Below, in pieces: positions 5,708 through 54,446 of a stretch of DNA of 54,446 bases. How positions within the stretch are numbered: position 1 is the first letter of the stretch; the number at the start of each line of letters is the position of its first letter. The stretch is from a virus (lineage: Duplodnaviria > Caudoviricetes): positions 1-54,446 of IMG/VR virus record IMGVR_UViG_3300046171_000011. The stretch is one strand, 5' to 3'. The position numbers and the translations under genes are program-made. The notes below the pieces were generated by a model that did not search any database, was not told the origin of the DNA, and worked only from the letters and a program-made list of their open reading frames with translations.

Positions 5708-6625
5708 ATGAACATCCCCAAGAAAAATGCTAAGCTACAAGTTGTTGTAGACTTTTATCTGAACTCAAGAAAGTTTGCTAAGCTGAGTGGTTCAACTCAG
5801 AAAGACTACGAGTATCAGCTAGGTGTCGTATGCAATACAGTAGTGGAAGGTAAACGTCTTGGGGATTACACACTAAAAAACATAAAGGTGCGTCACCTGA
5901 CACAAGCATATGAGACATGGACTGAGACAGGTATACGCTCAGCTAACTATCGCCGGGATGTTCTTTCTGCTGCGTGGAAAAATGCAATGCGCTATGACGT
6001 TATGTCACACAACCCTGTTAGTTTAATAAAAGCAGAGGCATCAAAGGATCGCAGAGTATTCTGGACACGTGATCAGATTTCTGCTTTTCTTTCAACGGCT
6101 TACAGTAATTACAGTTGGCGCAGCATAGGTCTGATCTTACACATGGCATACGATTGGGGTCAGCGCTTAGGTGATATGCGTCTGCTTACATGGGATGCAC
6201 TAGACTTAGATGGGTGTCGCCTTGACATCACACAAAGCAAACGTAATGCAGAAGTACACTTGCCAATCGCATCTGATTTGTGTAAGATGCTGCAACAACA
6301 GAAGGAAGACTTTGGGTTTCAAGACTATGTAGCACCAAGAGTTAAGCCAAGGGCAGGTGCGTACACACCATACAACAAAGAAGAAATATCGCCACTTATC
6401 AATGAGGTACTAGAAGAAGCTAATCTACCACATGAACTTACTGGTATGGACTTGAGGCGTACTGCTGTGACTGAGATGATGGAAGGTGGTGCAAACATGA
6501 CAGAGATTATGCAGGTGACAGGCCATAAGAATATGGCATCACTGCGTCCTTACATGGTGAACACATTGAGTGGTGCATCAAAGGCTCTAGCAACCAGAGG
6601 TAATAATGAGGATGAACATTCGTGA
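5708..6625 (+). CDS. int: Tyrosine recombinase / integrase
   Basis: GQRLGD (Arg I), QSKR (Lys), DLRRT (Arg II), TGHKN and PY catalytic Tyr; N-terminal core-binding region. Confidence 0.9.
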   Translation: MNIPKKNAKLQVVVDFYLNSRKFAKLSGSTQKDYEYQLGVVCNTVVEGKRLGDYTLKNIKVRHLTQAYETWTETGIRSANYRRDVLSAAWKNAMRYDVMSHNPVSLIKAEASKDRRVFWTRDQISAFLSTAYSNYSWRSIGLILHMAYDWGQRLGDMRLLTWDALDLDGCRLDITQSKRNAEVHLPIASDLCKMLQQQKEDFGFQDYVAPRVKPRAGAYTPYNKEEISPLINEVLEEANLPHELTGMDLRRTAVTEMMEGGANMTEIMQVTGHKNMASLRPYMVNTLSGASKALATRGNNEDEHS

Positions 6626-46721: not shown

Positions 46722-48815
46722 TACCTGTAAATCCTTGTTCGCCCGGTGTAGGTGCAGTACCTATACCTATTTGTGATCCACCACCACCTGATGTATCTGC
46801 TACAGCCTGTGGTCCTTGCCCTTCTGGTGAAGGTACGCCTTGCTCTGGCGTAGGCGCAGGTGCTTGAAATCCTTTTAGTATCTCCGCTTGTATAGCTGCA
46901 TCCTGCATGGAGTTAGTAACCTTATCAGGGTCGAGGTCCATGCTCTTTGCAATCTCTCTATAATATAGTCCATCTTAGCAAAAGGTGCAAGTACTGGATT
47001 CTGTGCTACTTGTAAGAACTGCATCAAGCGTTGGCTACGTACTTCGTTAGCCATTAAGCTTTCTGTACCTGACGCATGTACTTCTAAGTCACCTTTTATA
47101 TCTTCATCAAAGTCAAACTGCATGTTGAATGCAAAGAATGCTTTGCCTAGTGGTCTAATTAGATAGTCATCAACATTCTTAACAACGGTACGGATACTAC
47201 CGTTAGCAGCAGACATAAGCATAGAGATTCCAGAAGCAGTACGCCCAACTCCTTGAACTCCTGTTTGACCATGTGCAAAAGATGGAATCCAGTAGACTCA
47301 TCAGCTAATACCCTCGCTTTATCAAATAGTTGCATGTTCTCTTGTGCCACGTTTGGAAACTTTGTACCAAATATAGCTTGTCCTGGAGCGCCACCCTGTC
47401 TCCTGAATATCTTTCCAGGATATACAGATAGGTCTTGACCAGGAACTAAGTTAGTTTCATCTACTTCTATAATTAGGTTACCAGATAATGCAGCATTGTC
47501 AATAGCCATTCTCATAAAGCCATTCATCAATGTCTGTGTATCGTCCATGTTCTCAGCAATACCAACGCCAAAGAATGAATATGGGTTATGTTCGTAAGGT
47601 ACAGCGTAGTAAGGAATACGTGTAGGCTTGAATGGGTTTAGTACAAACCGTAGTACTTCACCATTACATGTCCATATGTTACAGTTAACTTCGTCTAAGT
47701 CTGACAACTCACTAGGTACATCAACACCGTGTTCTTCTAGTATCTTTGTATCTACAAAACCCCAGAACTCTAATACTTCCCAACGTTCTGATGTTGGTTG
47801 AGTATCGTCATCCTCCATAGTCATTTCCCAGTACTTCTGTGATAGTCTGGTCCTGCATCTACAGCTTTCTGTACTGCATCATCCATAAAGTATGGACGTG
47901 ACTTCAGCGCACGTAGTTGTGTGCGTGACATCTTATGTCTTTGTACAGTATACTCTGCCTCATCCATATCCTTTGGCTTCAGGGTCAGGATAGAAATCCC
48001 ATATAGAAACGTGGTCACATTCTGGAACAGTTTTTACTATAGGTTCATACTCAGCCATCTTCATTCCAGTTAGGGTATTCTTTATCTACAGCAAACGCAC
48101 CCTTCATAACACCTGTACCAAGTAGTGCCATTTCAAATGCCATACTTCTTAGGTGTGTAGTAGCTCCGCTTTCCTGTAGCTGATCATGGATCTTCTTCTC
48201 CATCTTCTTAGCTGCAACCATAGAAGGATGAAATGTAACACTAGTAGCTGTAGTACCATCACCCTCTATAATCTTCTCAGACACAGGTGCTAGTTTCTCT
48301 TCCATGCCACCTAGTCTAGCCTGTAGATCCATAAGTGTTTCACCTGGTTTTAATTCTGTATCGCCATCTATTAGATAGGGCTTTGGCGCTGGTGATCCCA
48401 TAGCTGCACTAATAGCAGCCTGTCCTGCTTCTACTCTAGGGTCTATGTTTATATGTACAGACTCAGCTACGCCATCAGGTAGCACAGAAGGATTGACTGA
48501 CATAGGGAACTTGTTATTACCAAACAGTACATCTACAATCTGACCATATGCTGCTAAGGTTTTAGTCTTAGTAACCTTAACAAACACACGTGACTTTTCT
48601 GTGTCAGTGAATTGTACATCTGATCCGTACAAACCCCGATAATTTCTGTAGGCTCTTAGCCATCTAGTTTCGTCTGCGTCACGTGCATCCTCTGCTCGAC
48701 GGTAACGTTCTTCAACAAATGCTACTACGCTAGACTTTTCCTCAAAGATACTGTCAGTACTGTCTTCTGCAGCAATGACTTCATCTGTCTCAAACATCTC
48801 TTCTTGTTCTGCCAT
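46696..48815 (-). CDS. Portal protein (at least five apparent frameshifts)
   Basis: Consecutive fragments 48051-48815, 47821-48018, 47159-47824, 46875-47222 and 46696-46941 join up: W..AYRNYRG.Y, FVKVTKTK, GTGVMKG, PY..VPYE..PYSFFG.G, GRTASG.SML. Confidence 0.88.
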
Positions 48816-48817
48816 TC

Positions 48818-50412
48818 TTAATACCCGAATGTTGTGTCACTGGCTTGGAAGCCTGTGCGCTGTGTTGCAGGATTAAAATCCCAAATGCTGCTACGTGGTC
48901 TTGTCATTATACCATAACGAAGCGCATCATACAAGTGGTCTTCTGCTTTGGTGTCTACATCTTCTGGATTCTTTTTGTCCAGTGGGATGCTTGGTAGCTG
49001 TGCTATGGTGTTAGTACAGTTATCATAAATACTAAGCATAGGCTTTTCATATAACTCATCTACCTTGCAAACGCCTAGTGTATTTCGTTTTTACCTGCGA
49101 TACGTGACCCTCTGAACGATCTGAAGGGACGCCATCGACAACCCTTCATATTCATCTGTTCAGCTAGTGATGGCCCAGTATCGCCACGGTTGTGCCATAA
49201 AGAGCTATCAAGCACACCGTATCTCATACCACCGTCTTGTGCTTCTGCCTCTAGTATCATATCTGCTAAGTCTGTAGCAGTAACTTTAGATACATACATT
49301 TCCCTAGTAGACTATAAGCTGTCTCATCAGGAGCAACAGTAAACCAGAGAACCCCAGGTAACTGACCGTAGCCATAATCGCAAGCCCTGAAACCTAACCC
49401 GAACTGTAGGATTTCAAAGTGTTCGCTAACGTGGGCAGTTCTGTCAAATTCGGGAAATGCTGCTCCCTTCGTTGACATCCCAGTTTCCTTCGAGGAGTTG
49501 CTTCCTCTGATGCTCTGGTAGTGATAAGAGCATGGCCTCATAGTCACCCTCTTCGGCAAGGTATGGGTTATCGAAGAGAGATGCAGGAATAAACCTACGC
49601 TTGAATAGAGGCTGACCTTCCTTGCTGTGTCCTTTAGGGAATGTAATTGTTTTACTTGTTTCAATGTCTGTAGCCCAAAAGTCTTTACCTGCAGGTGCAG
49701 GATCTATAAACATCTTCTTTACCCAAGCATGTCCAGCACCACCTGGGTTTGTTGTAGCTCTCATGTAAAGACCTAGTTCTCTACTGTGTGCGCTACGAAG
49801 ACGTGACCTCATATAATCCCAAGCGTAAGGTGTAGGCCATTGAGTAAGTTCGTCAAATCCAATCCAGTTAAAAGCCTGTCCTTGGTAACGTGTGACATCG
49901 GTATCTTTGTCCAGATACGACATCCATAGTCTTCCACCTCTAGGAGATATCCACTGTGACTTACGCTCTGACCATTTGATTCCTGGTATGGCACGTGGGT
50001 ATAACTCCTGTGACTTCTGTATTAGTTCCCTTAGTTCTTCAGTCGTGTGTCGTACAAGGAGTCCAGAGAAGTGTGGATCGTTAAGGCCGTGTAATGGGTC
50101 TGCCAACATAGCATATGATTTACCACCACCTGCTGCCCCTCCGTATAGTACTTCTCTCTCAGATGAACTCAAGAAAGATGTTTGTGGACCTTCATTAGGC
50201 TTAAATACAACTTCCTGTGCTTCATCTACGTCATACTCAGGTGCTACTACCTGCGCTGGGATAGTTTCAGTTTGGGGGGCTTCTATCTCCGCTGGCTTCT
50301 GAGTATGCTCCGACCCCTTGTGTTTCGAGCTTCTCGATTTGCGAGAGCGTCTCTTGGAGCCACTTGGCAAGCTTACGTTTAATTGCAGATGCTTTTCTAC
50401 GTTTTTGCTCAA
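48818..50412 (-). CDS. terL: Terminase large subunit (multiple apparent frameshifts; start uncertain)
   Basis: Walker A YGGAAGGGKS, Walker B IGFDELTQW, ATTNPGG, nuclease DYGY and EDH.YDALRYG, spread over four ORF fragments. Confidence 0.9.
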
Positions 50413-50695
50413 CTTCTATTCTCTTCTTTAGACCCATGTGTGATATGTATCGGTCTGCTTCTTTACTCAACCACTGTGCTACTGCTCTGTAACTATACTG
50501 CTTGAGGTGTTGTTTTGCAAGCTCTAACGCTTCTAGCTCATGTTCTACAGGAACAAGTAGCTTATCGTTATCTGGGTGTAACTCATAGCCAAAGGGAACT
50601 TTTAAAGTTGTCCTTACTATAATGTGCCACTCTTTGTTGTGTCCTTTGGGTGGCAGAGGTAGCTGCCAGAATCCCAGTTCTCTTTGAGGTATTAT
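50267..50695 (-). CDS. Hypothetical DNA-binding/packaging-associated protein with apparent ATA start
   Basis: The frame is open from ~50695 (IPQRELGFWQLP...VPFGYE...ELEALELAK..L..YSYR.VA.WL); the ORF track shows only the last 67 aa. Confidence 0.65.
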   Translation of the reverse strand: MIPQRELGFWQLPLPPKGHNKEWHIIVRTTLKVPFGYELHPDNDKLLVPVEHELEALELAKQHLKQYSYRAVAQWLSKEADRYISHMGLKKRIEVEQKRRKASAIKRKLAKWLQETLSQIEKLETQGVGAYSEASGDRSPPN

Positions 50696-51060
50696 TCGTT
50701 TGTACCTTCTTTAGGTGGTAAATAGAAAATGCCACCACCACTGGTAACATCTACTTTGTCTACTTTACCAAGACCTGCTCTGTCAAGCACATCTTTGGCA
50801 GCTATCATTTTTTCTTTGATACCCAACTCAGTGGGATCTTGCAAAGCGCCCATAAGCGCAAAAGCAGCTTTAGGGGCAGTCCTAGCAAAGTAAGTACGAG
50901 TCTTTTCAGCGATTTCATCTTTTAGTGCCTCCACTATTGCAGTTGTACTGGTGTTGTCGCCGTAACCTGCCAACTTTTTAGCTGCGACAACATCACCATT
51001 AGCCTCATCAAATAATACATCTAAGAATCGCTGCTGCTTATCAGTCAGAGTTCTCGCCAT
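50692..51060 (-). CDS. Putative terminase small subunit
   Basis: N-terminal LTDKQQRFL...A..LAGY HTH and AKDVLDRAG motif; upstream of terL. Confidence 0.65.
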   Translation of the reverse strand: MARTLTDKQQRFLDVLFDEANGDVVAAKKLAGYGDNTSTTAIVEALKDEIAEKTRTYFARTAPKAAFALMGALQDPTELGIKEKMIAAKDVLDRAGLGKVDKVDVTSGGGIFYLPPKEGTNE

Positions 51061-51202
51061 AAACTATTCCTTGTATTTGTGAGCGATGAATGCCTATGTC
51101 TTTTAGGTCACGGTCACTCAGTGTATTCAGTAGTATGTATTCTGCTCTGCGCTTCTGTCCATTTTCAATCGCTTTAAACGCAGCTTTAAACCACTTTTTC
51201 AT
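51041..51202 (-). CDS. DUF1127 (YjiS-like) small protein, 53 aa; not in the ORF track
   Basis: MKKWFKAAFKAIENGQKRRAEYILLNTLSDRDLKDIGIHRSQIQGIVYGENSD contains the L..LSDR.L.DIG..R..I signature; AAGGAG RBS. Confidence 0.85.
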   Translation of the reverse strand: MKKWFKAAFKAIENGQKRRAEYILLNTLSDRDLKDIGIHRSQIQGIVYGENSD

Positions 51203-51287
51203 TGCACTATCTCCTTTTTGTTAGTGTGCGTGGAGATAGTTATACACACTTGTTAGCGCTAGAGTAGATACAATCTTTGCATAGCCG

Positions 51288-51653
51288 CTACCTGCTAGGG
51301 TTATAGAATTGCCTTACAGATATAAAGATTTCTATAGTACCGCTTGATCCATCAAAGGCTACGATCTTATCACCTTCATGCATATGTATTCTGTCAGAAG
51401 TTACGATATTATAAACATCTTTACCTGCTACAGACTTATCATTTATTAAGTGATGGTATGCATTAGTGTCTGCGTGATAAAACTGCAGGGTAACATTCTG
51501 TGTAGAAGAAGAGCCATTGCTTGCGTGAAGAAAGTCTATTGTAGCATCGTGATGCGGTGGACACGTATACACAACATTACCACTAGCACCACCAGACGTA
51601 GCTGTAACAGTCACTGCCTCTGTGGACGTAGTAAAGTTGCGAAGTTCTACCAT
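51288..51653 (-). CDS. Hypothetical structural-type protein
   Basis: YTCP motif, beta-rich; TAATG coupling. Confidence 0.7.
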   Translation of the reverse strand: MVELRNFTTSTEAVTVTATSGGASGNVVYTCPPHHDATIDFLHASNGSSSTQNVTLQFYHADTNAYHHLINDKSVAGKDVYNIVTSDRIHMHEGDKIVAFDGSSGTIEIFISVRQFYNPSR

Positions 51654-53476: not shown

Positions 53477-53743
53477 CTATCCAATACCTTCACGTTCTCT
53501 GTCAGGGTCTAGTACGTCTTTACGGTCTATCCAACCCTCTAAGTACATAGCTCTCTCTACGTGGTCTAGAGTGTAACGCACTCCTGTGTCACTTTCTATT
53601 GCTGCACGTACATAGAATACGTCAGACTTAGGAATGTGTATACGTCTTAGAGCTTTACTGTCTTCTGAGACTAAGGCAGAGTAAAACTCTTCTATTACGT
53701 TATCTGATGCATATAGTTTTACTTGTCTTTTCTTCAAAGTCAA
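53477..53743 (-). CDS. Hypothetical protein, first gene of the structural arm
   Basis: TTG start with an AAGG RBS; HIP.SDVFYVRAA motif. Confidence 0.65.
   Translation of the reverse strand: MTLKKRQVKLYASDNVIEEFYSALVSEDSKALRRIHIPKSDVFYVRAAIESDTGVRYTLDHVERAMYLEGWIDRKDVLDPDREREGIG
53715..53743 (-). promoter_or_regulatory. Promoter-like element
   Basis: TTGACT-N16-TAAAACT, same architecture as 42756-42784. Confidence 0.55.
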
Positions 53744-53754
53744 TACCTTATATT

Positions 53755-53879
53755 AAAAAATAAAGGTACGTGTCGCAAACTTACGTGTGAGAGGAGGAGA
53801 CATGAGGAAGAGTGACACATAATATTTGTGACACGTACCAGTGTAACACTTATTTGTTACGTTTATTATTGTGTTACTG
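53755..53879 (-). ncRNA. Candidate sRNA with an anti-Shine-Dalgarno loop
   Basis: Own promoter upstream, two hairpins, loop CUUCCUCAUGUCUCCUCCUCUC, ends in UUUAUUUUUU. Confidence 0.7.
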
Positions 53880-53884
53880 TAATT

Positions 53885-53913
53885 AGTATACAGATATAAG
53901 AAGAGTTTGTCAA
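53885..53913 (-). promoter_or_regulatory. Near-consensus sigma70 promoter
   Basis: TTGACA-N17-TATACT. Confidence 0.8.
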
Positions 53914-53917
53914 GGGA

Positions 53918-54040
53918 ATAGTTAAACTTTATAGTTAAACTCTTCCTATGTCCACTATCTTATTTGCAACACTCTTTATTTAGTTAAACTATCTTTTATT
54001 TATTACTTGATTAAGTTAAAACACTTAAAGTTTAACTATA
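53918..54040. repeat. TAGTTAAACT-type repeat cluster
   Basis: Copies at about 53919, 53932, 53981 and 54014, an inverted copy at ~54029, and a variant at ~54197. Confidence 0.7.
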
Positions 54041-54057
54041 CCCTGCTACTGCTACGC

Positions 54058-54086
54058 AGTTATACACATATATCAGGCTGTGTCAA
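54058..54086 (-). promoter_or_regulatory. Sigma70-type promoter
   Basis: TTGACA-N16-TATAACT. Confidence 0.7.
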
Positions 54087-54177
54087 GCGCTTATTTAGCT
54101 AGGTGCGACACTTTGTCCTACTTTATGTAGGCTATGAACAGTGCTACTATATAGACGTTTCTGTAAAAGAGCTTTAA

Positions 54178-54190
54178 TATCAATGACTTA
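54178..54190 (+). promoter_or_regulatory. IHF consensus site
   Basis: TATCAATGACTTA matches WATCAANNNNTTR; a related inverted copy lies at 54340-54352. Confidence 0.55.
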
Positions 54191-54446
54191 CGTATATAGT
54201 TAAAATCAAGGAGGTTTTAGCCATTTCAAAAATCACTTCTGTGTGCTTGTACATATACACGTAGCGTATATACCCCCACTGGCCCACGCCGCCCCACTCT
54301 TTTCTGTTGTTGTTGCCGTTTTTCTGTGGTGTTTTGCCCTAAGTCATTGTTTTTATTGCACTTTATAACTGATATATCCTCAATTTAGGCTAAAAAGGTG
54401 TTGTAAATATGTCACACTTCAGGTTTGTGATCACAAAACCAAAATG

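What the first reader, a model, noticed from the sequence alone, without database searches (positions are those of the whole stretch)
51041..51202. Unannotated phage DUF1127 gene, possible protein partner of the anti-SD sRNA
Seen: a 53-aa ORF missed by the track carries the DUF1127 signature LSDRDLKDIGIHRSQI and sits between the small late genes and terS. Known: in Rhodobacter sphaeroides the DUF1127 protein CcaF1 binds RNA and is co-transcribed with the CcsR cuckoo sRNAs, and DUF1127 proteins affect phosphate physiology in Agrobacterium. Inference: the phage may carry a captured DUF1127 + anti-SD sRNA module, which would fit with its PhoH and MazG genes.
Basis: partly seen in the sequence, partly recalled or inferred. 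Interest (0 to 1): 0.78.

Follow-up and report, generated by a model that had tools for sequence, protein, structure and literature searches.

The report
Roseophage DUF1127 small-protein gene
A marine phage of roseobacters carries a real, well-conserved copy of a tiny bacterial regulator gene (DUF1127), probably to interfere with its host's own signalling, but nothing shows that it came in as a package with the nearby folded RNA.

Summary
The 53-aa ORF at 51041-51202 (-) is real. It scores 37.4 bits against Pfam DUF1127 (cut-off 23.3), has a good Shine-Dalgarno site, and differs from its nearest copies almost only by synonymous changes.

The window is a 99% complete HMO-2011-type roseophage. 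DUF1127 passes the Pfam cut-off in 11 of 11 isolated roseophages of this type and in the unrelated roseophage CRP-5. It is absent from 8 of 8 relatives that infect SAR116, SAR11, rhizobia or unknown hosts. GenBank already names the CRP-603 copy DUF1127. This scan has noted phage DUF1127 about 200 times on other DNA.

The "captured DUF1127 + anti-SD sRNA module" idea is not supported:
- The hairpin at 53755-53879 is a real conserved leader RNA, but it lies 2.56 kb and about eight ORFs upstream.
- It fails the cuckoo/ar14 definition.
- It is missing from 8 of 11 isolates that keep DUF1127.

Where both occur, the co-occurrence reflects shared ancestry. Binding remains untested.

The most likely role is a mimic of the host's small DUF1127 regulators, which bind PhoR or RNA. 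A conserved hairpin that covers the ribosome-binding site precedes the gene.

Verdict: a new member of a known kind, of moderate interest.

The parts
51041..51202 (-). DUF1127 small-protein gene (53 aa; ATG at 51202, TGA at 51041-51043)
   Evidence: ORF. PF06568 at 37.4 bits against a 23.3 cut-off. Synonymous-only differences to L004. Homologues over the cut-off in 11 of 11 HMO-2011-type roseophage isolates.
51206..51240 (-). Hairpin covering the ribosome-binding site in the 5' leader of the DUF1127 gene. The 5' arm ACUAUCUCC (51240-51232) pairs with GGAGAUAGU (51214-51206), which contains the Shine-Dalgarno site.
   Evidence: Sequence and folds. An equivalent hairpin over the SD (often also the AUG) is predicted in 9 of 10 isolates folded and in contigs L006, L007 and L011; CRP-2 instead pairs the start-codon region. 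The arms differ but stay complementary in CRP-13, CRP-235, CRP-212 and CRP-3. Within the window alone the SD pairing probability is 0.80, rank 10 of 75 ORF starts, which is not exceptional.
51238..51247 (-). -10-like box GTGTATAACT (TATAAC at 51244-51239) overlapping the 5' arm of that hairpin
   Evidence: Sequence. A TATAAC or TATAAT box lies at, or 3' of, the 5' arm in all 10 isolates folded. The 10-mer GTATAACTAT occurs exactly only here in the window. Promoter activity is inferred, not shown.
50692..51060 (-). Probable small terminase gene; its start overlaps the DUF1127 stop by 20 nt
   Evidence: Weak Terminase_2 (E 0.012) and phrog_2538 (E 0.0048) matches. The homologues in CRP-207 and CRP-13 are annotated terS. 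83-84% identical proteins lie directly after DUF1127 in L112, L117, L119, L120 and L122.
51288..51653 (-). Conserved 121-aa gene of unknown function upstream of DUF1127, separated by an 85-nt spacer
   Evidence: phrog_1276, E 1.6e-6. A gene of 118-120 aa lies just upstream of the DUF1127 match in CRP-207, CRP-13, CRP-603, CRP-2, CRP-1 and CRP-345 (with 33 and 34). tblastn matches in L112, L117, L119, L120 and L122.
53755..53879 (-). It was evaluated here as the proposed partner and is a separate feature. SL1 spans 53877-53843. SL2 spans 53839-53765, with a 26-nt C/U-rich loop at 53814-53789. The U-run is at 53764-53755.
   Evidence: Fold at -34.7 kcal/mol, z -4.72, 0 of 200 shuffles as good. 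The same two-hairpin layout occurs in CRP-207, CRP-603 and CRP-2. It is found in 70 of 79 assessable viral contigs. 5 of 14 consensus pairs show compensatory changes. No Rfam match.
53885..53913 (-). Sigma-70-like promoter (TTGACA, 17 nt, TATACT) that would start the leader near 53879
   Evidence: 11 of 12 consensus matches, the best of 10 sites in the scan; shuffles gave a mean of 8.4 sites. This is a consensus match only.

Best explanation
Shown: this is a genuine protein-coding DUF1127 gene and an accessory gene kept across a whole phage lineage. It is a fixed feature of HMO-2011-type phages that infect roseobacters. It sits in the late (- strand) arm just ahead of the packaging genes. A conserved leader hairpin hides its ribosome-binding site.

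Inferred: a -10-like box sits at or after the 5' arm of that hairpin. Only transcripts that start at this box would lack the masking arm and be translated. Read-through mRNA from upstream would be silent for this gene.

Inferred mechanism, the one I commit to: the basic, three-helix protein copies the host's own small DUF1127 regulators. [quoted passage not shown] The direction of the effect is unknown.

The second-best target is RNA, in the manner of CcaF1.

The gene is not part of a captured DUF1127-plus-cuckoo-sRNA cassette.
For: Identity:
- PF06568 at 37.4 bits against 23.3.
- Purifying selection: 6 synonymous and 0 non-synonymous differences to L004; 5 and 1 to L005.

Lineage conservation:
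- Over the cut-off in 11 of 11 HMO-2011-type roseophage isolates and in the unrelated roseophage CRP-5 at 45.4 bits.
- Over the cut-off in 0 of 8 relatives from other hosts: HMO-2011, HTVC103P, HTVC104P, HTVC115P, HTVC033P, MW202701, RHph_N3_19 and phiM6.
- All 12 of 12 sampled viral-contig homologues match PF06568.

Regulation:
- The leader hairpin has co-varying arms across isolates, with the -10-like box at or after the 5' arm.

Mechanism (established knowledge plus inference):
- In Agrobacterium, small DUF1127 proteins bind PhoR.
[quoted passage not shown] The activity therefore tolerates divergence as large as the phage protein's.
- The window protein is basic (K6 + R4 against 7 acidic residues, read) and is predicted helical.
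- The phage also carries PhoH and an integrase.
- Weak hint of expression: RNA-library contigs identical over 50952-51150 (X7) and 50952-51182 (X1).
Against: - No experiment or computation here touches PhoR. The host and its PhoR are unknown.
- The protein has 7.5% arginine (4 of 53), while the family average is quoted as 14%.
- Host DUF1127 proteins repress phosphate uptake. It is not obvious why a phage that carries PhoH would want that.
- Rhizobiophages related through terL lack the gene although rhizobia have many DUF1127 proteins. A host having the family therefore does not predict the phage having it.
- The gene lies in the late arm, not among early takeover genes.
- In 3 of 11 isolates and in several contigs it directly precedes terS, which leaves a packaging role open.
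- Salmonella YjiS shows that functions diverge within the family.
- The RNA-library contigs do not prove transcription.
Confidence: 0.38

Rival explanations
1. General RNA-binding protein of the CcaF1 type. The phage protein binds host and/or phage RNAs and alters their RNase E-dependent processing or decay late in infection, without any special tie to the leader hairpin.
For: - CcaF1, the DUF1127 protein of the related host genus Rhodobacter, binds RNA and affects sRNA maturation and mRNA stability (passages of PMC8034643; discussion in PMC12501420).
- The phage's long late operon would need processing.
- Weak SAM-like signals echo the published Smaug-like prediction: SAM_TNK in 1 of 12 homologues at E 2.3e-4, BICC1 SAM at E 0.31, and Foldseek rank 2 at E 4.6.
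Against: - RNA binding was attributed to the arginines, and this protein has only 4.
- YjiS does not bind RNA.
- CcaF1 itself also complements the PhoR-linked phenotype, so RNA binding need not be the family's shared activity.
- The structural signals are all below significance.
Confidence: 0.25
2. The protein is the dedicated partner of the C/U-loop leader RNA at 53755-53879, so the phage carries its own version of the host CcaF1-CcsR pair.
For: - The leader is a real conserved RNA with an anti-SD-like loop (CUCCUCCUCUC here; CUCCUCCC in CRP-207) behind a strong promoter and ahead of a U-run.
- Both features are on the same strand, and perhaps on one long transcript.
- In the window's subclade 56 contigs carry both.
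- Hosts of this phage group belong to a family where CIN1 loci exist.
Against: - The two are 2.5-4.5 kb apart and never adjacent.
- 8 of 11 isolates (CRP-13, 1, 345, 9, 235, 3, 738, 212) and the inspected contig L119 (no hairpin) have DUF1127 without the element; L117 and L120 show no C/U motif in the leader.
- CRP-5 has DUF1127 in a different module, next to MazG.
- There is no ar14 match at E <= 10.
- Only one of the two hairpins carries the motif, and it is 75 nt long, against the 24-50 nt cuckoo rule.
- Co-occurrence inside one clade is not independent evidence.
Confidence: 0.08
3. Packaging helper. The small basic protein works with the small terminase, for example in DNA recognition, and is translationally coupled to it.
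For: - The stop overlaps the terS start by 20 nt in the window.
- The same arrangement is seen in CRP-207 and CRP-13, in L009, and in L112, L117, L119, L120 and L122.
Against: - In CRP-603 and CRP-2 a 151-aa gene separates the two. In CRP-1 and CRP-345 several genes, including lysis genes, lie between them. In CRP-235, CRP-3, CRP-738 and CRP-212 the neighbours differ again.
- 8 of 8 relatives with homologous terminases lack the gene.
- In CRP-5 it sits between MazG and RNR.
Confidence: 0.1

Closest known systems
Small DUF1127 proteins SDP1-3 of Agrobacterium tumefaciens and YjiS of E. coli (PhoR-binding regulators; PMC12501420)
   Same: Same Pfam family. Same size class (about 50 aa). Same DIG(I/L)xR core. 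Basic and helical.
   Different: Encoded by a phage. Lysine-rich rather than arginine-rich (4 R, 6 K). The best matches in a 401-genome sample of the class reach only 35-51% identity over near-full-length matches, with one 22-residue match at 68%. The partner is untested.
CcaF1-CcsR (CIN1) locus of Rhodobacter sphaeroides and the cuckoo/ar14 RNAs (PMC8034643, PMC4615179)
   Same: A DUF1127 gene and an RNA with C/U-rich anti-SD-like loop sequence occur in one genome whose hosts are Rhodobacteraceae.
   Different: Not adjacent (2.56 kb and about eight ORFs between). One motif-bearing hairpin of 75 nt instead of 2-4 hairpins of 24-50 nt, each with CCUCCUCCC. No ar14 match. CcaF1 is 71 aa with an N-terminal extension, while this protein is 53 aa.
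CRP-603 gp69 (UAW59236.1) and the homologues in CRP-1, 2, 3, 9, 13, 207, 212, 235, 345 and 738
   Same: Same gene in the same phage group; 37-48% identity by tblastn for nine of them. The CRP-603 copy is already labelled 'DUF1127 domain-containing protein'.
   Different: Lengths range from 47 to 92 aa. Downstream neighbours differ. The other copies seen in feature tables are labelled hypothetical (CRP-9's was not viewed), and the CRP-13 copy is not annotated at all.
Lambda PR'-tR' late leader ('6S RNA') and the HK022 put RNAs (recalled, not from a call)
   Same: For the hairpin only: a strong constitutive-looking promoter, a short structured leader and a terminator-like hairpin directly ahead of the late operon.
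   Different: No antiterminator has been identified here. The C/U-rich loop has no counterpart. The resemblance comes from memory and was not tested.

Membership tests
DUF1127 (Pfam PF06568) | Whole-protein score at or above the curated gathering cut-off | tested here: met
   37.4 bits against 23.3, E 2.1e-9, profile positions 4-37 of 37. 37 bits in the six-frame search.
DUF1127 (Pfam PF06568) | Small protein with the conserved DIG(L/I) core | tested here: met
   53 aa. D35, I36, G37, I38 and R40 are invariant in the 12-sequence phage alignment. The DIGL motif is described in PMC11707872.
DUF1127 (Pfam PF06568) | Arginine richness (family average about 14%), a hallmark rather than a strict criterion | tested here: inconclusive
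   4 R of 53 (7.5%) plus 6 K. Net basic (sequence; figure from PMC12501420).
CIN1 locus (DUF1127 gene with adjacent cuckoo/CcsR RNAs) | Cuckoo RNAs directly adjacent to the DUF1127 ORF, in its 5' or 3' UTR | tested here: not met
   The nearest C/U-loop hairpin ends at 53765 and the gene starts at 51202, so 2563 nt and about eight ORFs lie between. CTCCTCC occurs only once in the window.
Cuckoo RNA family / Rfam ar14 | 2-4 adjacent hairpins of 24-50 nt, each loop (9-27 nt) carrying CCUCCUCCC | tested here: not met
   The SL1 loop has no such motif. SL2 is 75 nt. Its loop has CUCCUCCUCUC, not the 9-mer. Definition taken from PMC4615179.
Cuckoo RNA family / Rfam ar14 | Match to the Rfam covariance model | tested here: not met
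   No family reaches its gathering score in the whole window. No ar14 row at E <= 10 on 53650-54000.
CcaF1-type RNA-binding protein | Direct binding to RNA | not testable with these tools
   Needs gel shift or CLIP. There are only weak SAM-like sequence and fold hints.
PhoR-binding small DUF1127 regulators | Direct interaction with PhoR and repression of pstS | not tested
   The host PhoR is unknown. No complex prediction was run because only a stand-in from another host was available.

The most novel reading that the evidence does not exclude
Roseophages of this subclade carry an unlinked copy of the host's CcaF1-CcsR stress module. The leader RNA would be made in bulk from the strong promoter and ended at its own hairpin. 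It would use its cuckoo-like C/U loop to occupy Shine-Dalgarno sites, or to soak up host CcaF1 and Hfq. The phage DUF1127 protein would bind and mature it. Phages that lack the leader would use the protein on the host's own CcsR RNAs.
Probability: 0.08. Interest if true: 0.8.

Novelty: new member of a known kind. Interest (0 to 1): 0.4.

Why it matters
DUF1127 proteins have only recently gained functions: RNA binding in Rhodobacter and PhoR control in Agrobacterium and E. coli. Here a phage copy is kept in every isolated roseophage of one of the ocean's most abundant phage groups and is absent from their relatives on other hosts. That pattern marks it as a host-specific takeover or conversion gene. 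It also gives a simple test of whether phages steer the phosphate-starvation sensor with a 53-residue protein.

No paper in the held library turned up on phage-encoded DUF1127:
- The search 'DUF1127' + 'phage' found 10 papers, and none is about a phage gene by title. I read passages of two of them.
- The main text of the paper that defines the group has 0 mentions. Its supplements were closed and may list the domain.

The gene itself is ordinary in kind, is already labelled in one GenBank record, and was seen many times by this scan.

Tried and rejected
Structure
- The AlphaFold2 model from a 12-row alignment has pLDDT 71.3.
- Foldseek against PDB gave 0 matches at E <= 0.001.
- VIA-align over 48,161 chains gave a best Z of 4.5, generic helices only.
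- A profile search of PDB sequences gave nothing below E 0.0065, and that hit was an unrelated polymerase.

Other family libraries
- NCBIfam gave 0 families for the protein and its two neighbours.
- PHROGs gave only phrog_26566, 'unknown function'.

Homologue searches
- The search for homologous proteins returned only 2 clusters, because of its word filter.
- The genome-contig scan used the single pattern LKDIGIHR[SG], so its 19 loci are a biased set and say nothing about the donor.
- The 401-genome class search gave 18 genomes with weak matches and no taxonomy, so the host family could not be ranked.

Leader RNA
- MAFFT alignments A1 and A3 were poor between subgroups, partly because I chose bad coordinates. 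I therefore built no covariance model and used motif scans and folds instead.
- Duplex prediction of the 26-nt loop against 116 translation start regions ranked the DUF1127 start 30th (-14.3 kcal/mol, best -22.2). It is not a favoured target.
- Laid RNA-library contigs gave no cover over 53792-54000 and almost none over the hairpin. This says nothing about whether the leader is expressed.
- Run X3 laid nothing.

RBS hairpin
- Within the window alone its SD-pairing probability is 0.80, rank 10 of 75, which is unremarkable. The case for it rests on the comparison across phages.

Co-occurrence counts
- The 16 of 80 contigs without a DUF1127 match are too short or do not reach terS. The five with a full 6 kb (L161, L162, L165, L171, L173) show no terS, terL or phrog_1276-like gene either. 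They are not cases of a hairpin without DUF1127.
- My strict fold criterion gave 9 'no' calls. By eye, L122 has the hairpin and L112 has a variant of it. I did not inspect L117, L120, L123, L124, L126 or L179.

Not run or not useful
- Complex prediction was not used, because only a PhoR from another host could have been sent.
- The second literature search was badly framed (min_terms 2) and returned nothing useful.

Full report
OBSERVATION
The - strand ORF 51041..51202 encodes 53 residues and carries LSDRDLKDIGIHRSQI. Pfam DUF1127 (PF06568) matches at E 2.1e-9 and 37.4 bits, against a cut-off of 23.3. A six-frame family search of the whole record finds the same single place. AAGGAG lies 8 nt before the ATG.

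The frame is under purifying selection. The near-identical contigs L004 and L005 differ from the window by 6 synonymous and 0 non-synonymous codons, and by 5 synonymous and 1 non-synonymous codon, out of 54. The public protein collection already holds this exact protein with a precomputed PF06568 tag.

WHAT THE PHAGE IS
The window is a whole IMG/VR virus record, 99% complete by CheckV. Its terL N-terminus is 82-83% identical to those of Roseobacter phages CRP-207, CRP-603 and CRP-2, and 70% identical to that of Puniceispirillum phage HMO-2011. It is therefore an HMO-2011-type phage; the group is named in PMC9038755.

Genes run on the + strand up to about 18.7 kb. This arm holds integrase, ThyX, endonuclease I, MazG and PhoH. 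From 53743 down to about 18.9 kb they run on the - strand: small proteins, DUF1127, terS, terL, and then, by synteny with contig L009, portal and the structural genes, which I did not annotate further. The two arms diverge from the non-coding stretch 53744-54446.

DISTRIBUTION OF THE GENE
PF06568 passes the cut-off in all 11 isolated roseophages of this type:
- CRP-207, 13, 603, 2 and 1.
- CRP-345, 9, 235 and 3.
- CRP-738 and 212.

It is found in none of 8 relatives from other hosts: HMO-2011; HTVC103P, HTVC033P and MW202701; HTVC104P, HTVC115P, Rhizobium phage RHph_N3_19 and Sinorhizobium phage phiM6.

It also occurs in CRP-5, a roseophage of another family, between MazG and the ribonucleotide reductase. 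A pattern scan of viral contigs gave 51 loci. All 12 homologues that I sampled from them match PF06568. Among them is an abundant 66-aa form that lies next to a DNA polymerase in a different kind of phage.

GenBank labels CRP-603 gp69 'DUF1127 domain-containing protein'. The other copies that appeared in the feature tables I viewed are labelled 'hypothetical' (CRP-9's table over that region was not viewed), and the CRP-13 copy is unannotated. This scan has noted phage DUF1127 genes about 200 times in at least 154 genomes (AI notes, not checked by me). The gene is thus real, old in this lineage and specific to roseophages, but the kind of thing is not new.

LOCAL CONTEXT
The stop overlaps the start of a probable terS by 20 nt. 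Direct adjacency to terS recurs in CRP-207, CRP-13, L009, L112, L117, L119, L120 and L122. It does not recur in CRP-603 and CRP-2, where one gene lies between, nor in CRP-1 and CRP-345, where lysis genes lie between, nor in the CRP-3, 212, 235 and 738 set.

The leader is more constant. In the window, ACUAUCUCC (51240-51232) pairs with GGAGAUAGU (51214-51206), the Shine-Dalgarno site. An equivalent hairpin over the SD, and often the AUG, is predicted in 9 of 10 isolates folded; CRP-2 instead pairs the start-codon region, and CRP-603's SD stem is only 4 bp. It is also predicted in L006, L007 and L011. The arms differ but stay complementary: GUCUCCG/CGGAGAC in CRP-13; AAACUCUCCUUAGU/ACUAAGGAGAGUUU in CRP-235; AUAAUUACCUUC/GGAGGUAAUUAU in CRP-212.

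A TATAAC or TATAAT box always lies at, or 3' of, the 5' arm. Within the window alone the SD pairing probability is unremarkable (0.80, rank 10 of 75). Promoter use is not shown.

THE PROPOSED RNA PARTNER
On the - strand, a TTGACA-17-TATACT promoter match (11 of 12) is followed by a small hairpin. A 75-nt hairpin comes next, with the 26-nt loop CACUCUUCCUCAUGUCUCCUCCUCUC, and then UUUAUUUUUU. The first late-arm gene starts 12 nt further on. The fold has z -4.72, and 0 of 200 shuffles fold as well.

The same two-hairpin layout, with changed but complementary stems, occurs in CRP-207, CRP-603 and CRP-2. I took the 80 viral contigs kept from at least 594 that encode the downstream gene. In them, 70 of 79 assessable leaders have a C/U motif unpaired inside a deep stem. 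In a 14-sequence alignment, 5 of 14 consensus pairs show changes on both sides. It is a real RNA element.

It is not a catalogued one:
- No Rfam family reaches its threshold in the window.
- No ar14 row appears at E <= 10.
- It fails the published cuckoo definition of 2-4 hairpins of 24-50 nt, each with CCUCCUCCC in the loop. Only one hairpin has the motif, that hairpin is 75 nt long, and the 9-mer is absent here.

By position it looks like a promoter-proximal attenuator or leader of the late operon. The lambda PR'-tR' comparison comes from memory.

Among isolates, the hairpin is present in 3 of 11 (CRP-207, 603, 2), plus the window. The other 8 keep DUF1127 but have no C/U motif in the leader. 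In them, the shared 8-mer GTCTCCTC occurs only on the + strand at 16-42 kb, far from the leader, at control-like frequency.

Among the 80 contigs:
- 56 have both features.
- 8 have DUF1127 but fail my strict hairpin test. By eye two of these do have a hairpin and L119 does not; the others were not inspected.
- 14 have the hairpin but no DUF1127 match. All 14 are too short or stop before terS.
- 2 are uninformative.

So DUF1127 does not need the hairpin. No clear case of the hairpin without DUF1127 exists. The joint presence is confined to one subclade, many of whose contigs are near-duplicates. This is what common descent predicts and is not evidence of coupling.

The two features are 2563 nt apart in the window and 2.5-4.5 kb apart in the three isolates. 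The predicted duplex between the loop and the DUF1127 start region ranks 30th of 116. The 'captured module' reading is therefore not supported. Physical binding remains untested.

LIKELY FUNCTION
Three lines of published work bear on the function:
- CcaF1 of Rhodobacter binds RNA and affects CcsR maturation and mRNA stability.
- The three small DUF1127 proteins of Agrobacterium bind PhoR and hold down the Pst system. [quoted passage not shown]
- Salmonella YjiS is membrane-associated and showed no RNA binding.

The PhoR-linked activity survives divergence greater than that of the phage protein from bacterial ones; the best full-length matches were 35-51% identical, with one 22-residue match at 68%. 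I therefore take PhoR-directed mimicry as the single most likely mechanism (about 0.38). General RNA binding follows (about 0.25), then a packaging helper (about 0.1) and the dedicated leader-RNA partner (about 0.08). The rest is unknown.

Against the PhoR idea:
- Nothing here touches PhoR.
- The protein is lysine-rich rather than arginine-rich.
- The expected direction, repression of uptake, is not obviously useful to a phage.
- The gene lies in the late arm.

The integrase leaves room for expression from a prophage. PhoH and MazG are present but 32-36 kb away, so the 'fit' with them is only thematic.

OTHER ATTEMPTS
- The AlphaFold2 model (pLDDT 71.3; helices 3-27, 30-35 and 40-48) has no significant match in PDB by Foldseek or VIA-align (best Z 4.5).
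- Weak SAM-domain echoes agree with a published Smaug-like prediction but are below significance.
- Contigs from seawater RNA libraries are identical to the window over 50952-51150 (X7) and 50952-51182 (X1). This is compatible with transcription but does not prove it.

VERDICT
This is a new member of a known kind. Its most interesting aspects are its strict association with roseophages, its conserved translational mask, and a cheap test of PhoR mimicry.

Noticed in passing
window 48818-50412 (-) and 46875-48815 (-): terL is not one open frame. Against the intact 522-aa TerL of contig L009, the match changes frame near 49464, 49311 and 49070, with stops in between. The next gene, portal by position, is also split into ORFs of 254, 221 and 115 aa. 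The cause may be assembly or sequencing errors, a mixed assembly, or a defective genome.
   Followed up: partly
window 53755-53879 (-); L108-L184 upstream of the matched gene: The two-hairpin leader with a 25-30 nt C/U-rich loop is an uncatalogued RNA family. It is widespread in the window's subclade: 70 of 79 contigs by a strict test, with compensatory stem changes. Its position suggests an attenuator or leader of the late operon.
   Followed up: partly
window 51206-51247 (-); homologous leaders in L001, L002, L055-L058, L061-L064: The hairpin masking the DUF1127 ribosome-binding site is conserved across the phage group, with co-varying arms. A -10-like TATAAC/TATAAT box always lies at or after the 5' arm.
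   Followed up: partly
L188 (CRP-5, MK613347.1 10526-10723): In this roseophage of another family (Zobellviridae), the DUF1127 gene (gp24, labelled hypothetical; 45.4 bits) lies between MazG and the ribonucleotide reductase, in the nucleotide-metabolism module rather than the late arm.
   Followed up: no
L018-L054, e.g. L028:4950-5150: An abundant 66-aa DUF1127 form (37 of the 51 viral loci) sits at the end of a structural/lysis block and faces a family A DNA polymerase. It belongs to a different, apparently T7-like, marine phage type.
   Followed up: no
L002 (CRP-13, MW514247.1 about 49316-49474): The CRP-13 record has no CDS for its DUF1127 homologue (30.5 bits). The ORF lies in an annotated gap just upstream of terS.
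   Followed up: no
L006:1-55 (same contig as L107): The first 55 or so bases of this viral contig look like a sequencing-library adapter, not phage DNA. The homology to the window begins right after them. The adapter identity is recalled, not tested.
   Followed up: no
window 51041-51202 and alignment A2: Weak SAM-domain-like signals: PF22931 SAM_TNK in 1 of 12 homologues (E 2.3e-4), BICC1 and ANKS SAM chains at E 0.3-0.9, and BICC1 SAM at Foldseek rank 2 (E 4.6). All are below significance.
   Followed up: partly
window 5708-6625 (+): A tyrosine integrase is present (PF00589, E 2.4e-18), so the phage may be temperate. That would allow prophage expression of the DUF1127 gene.
   Followed up: no
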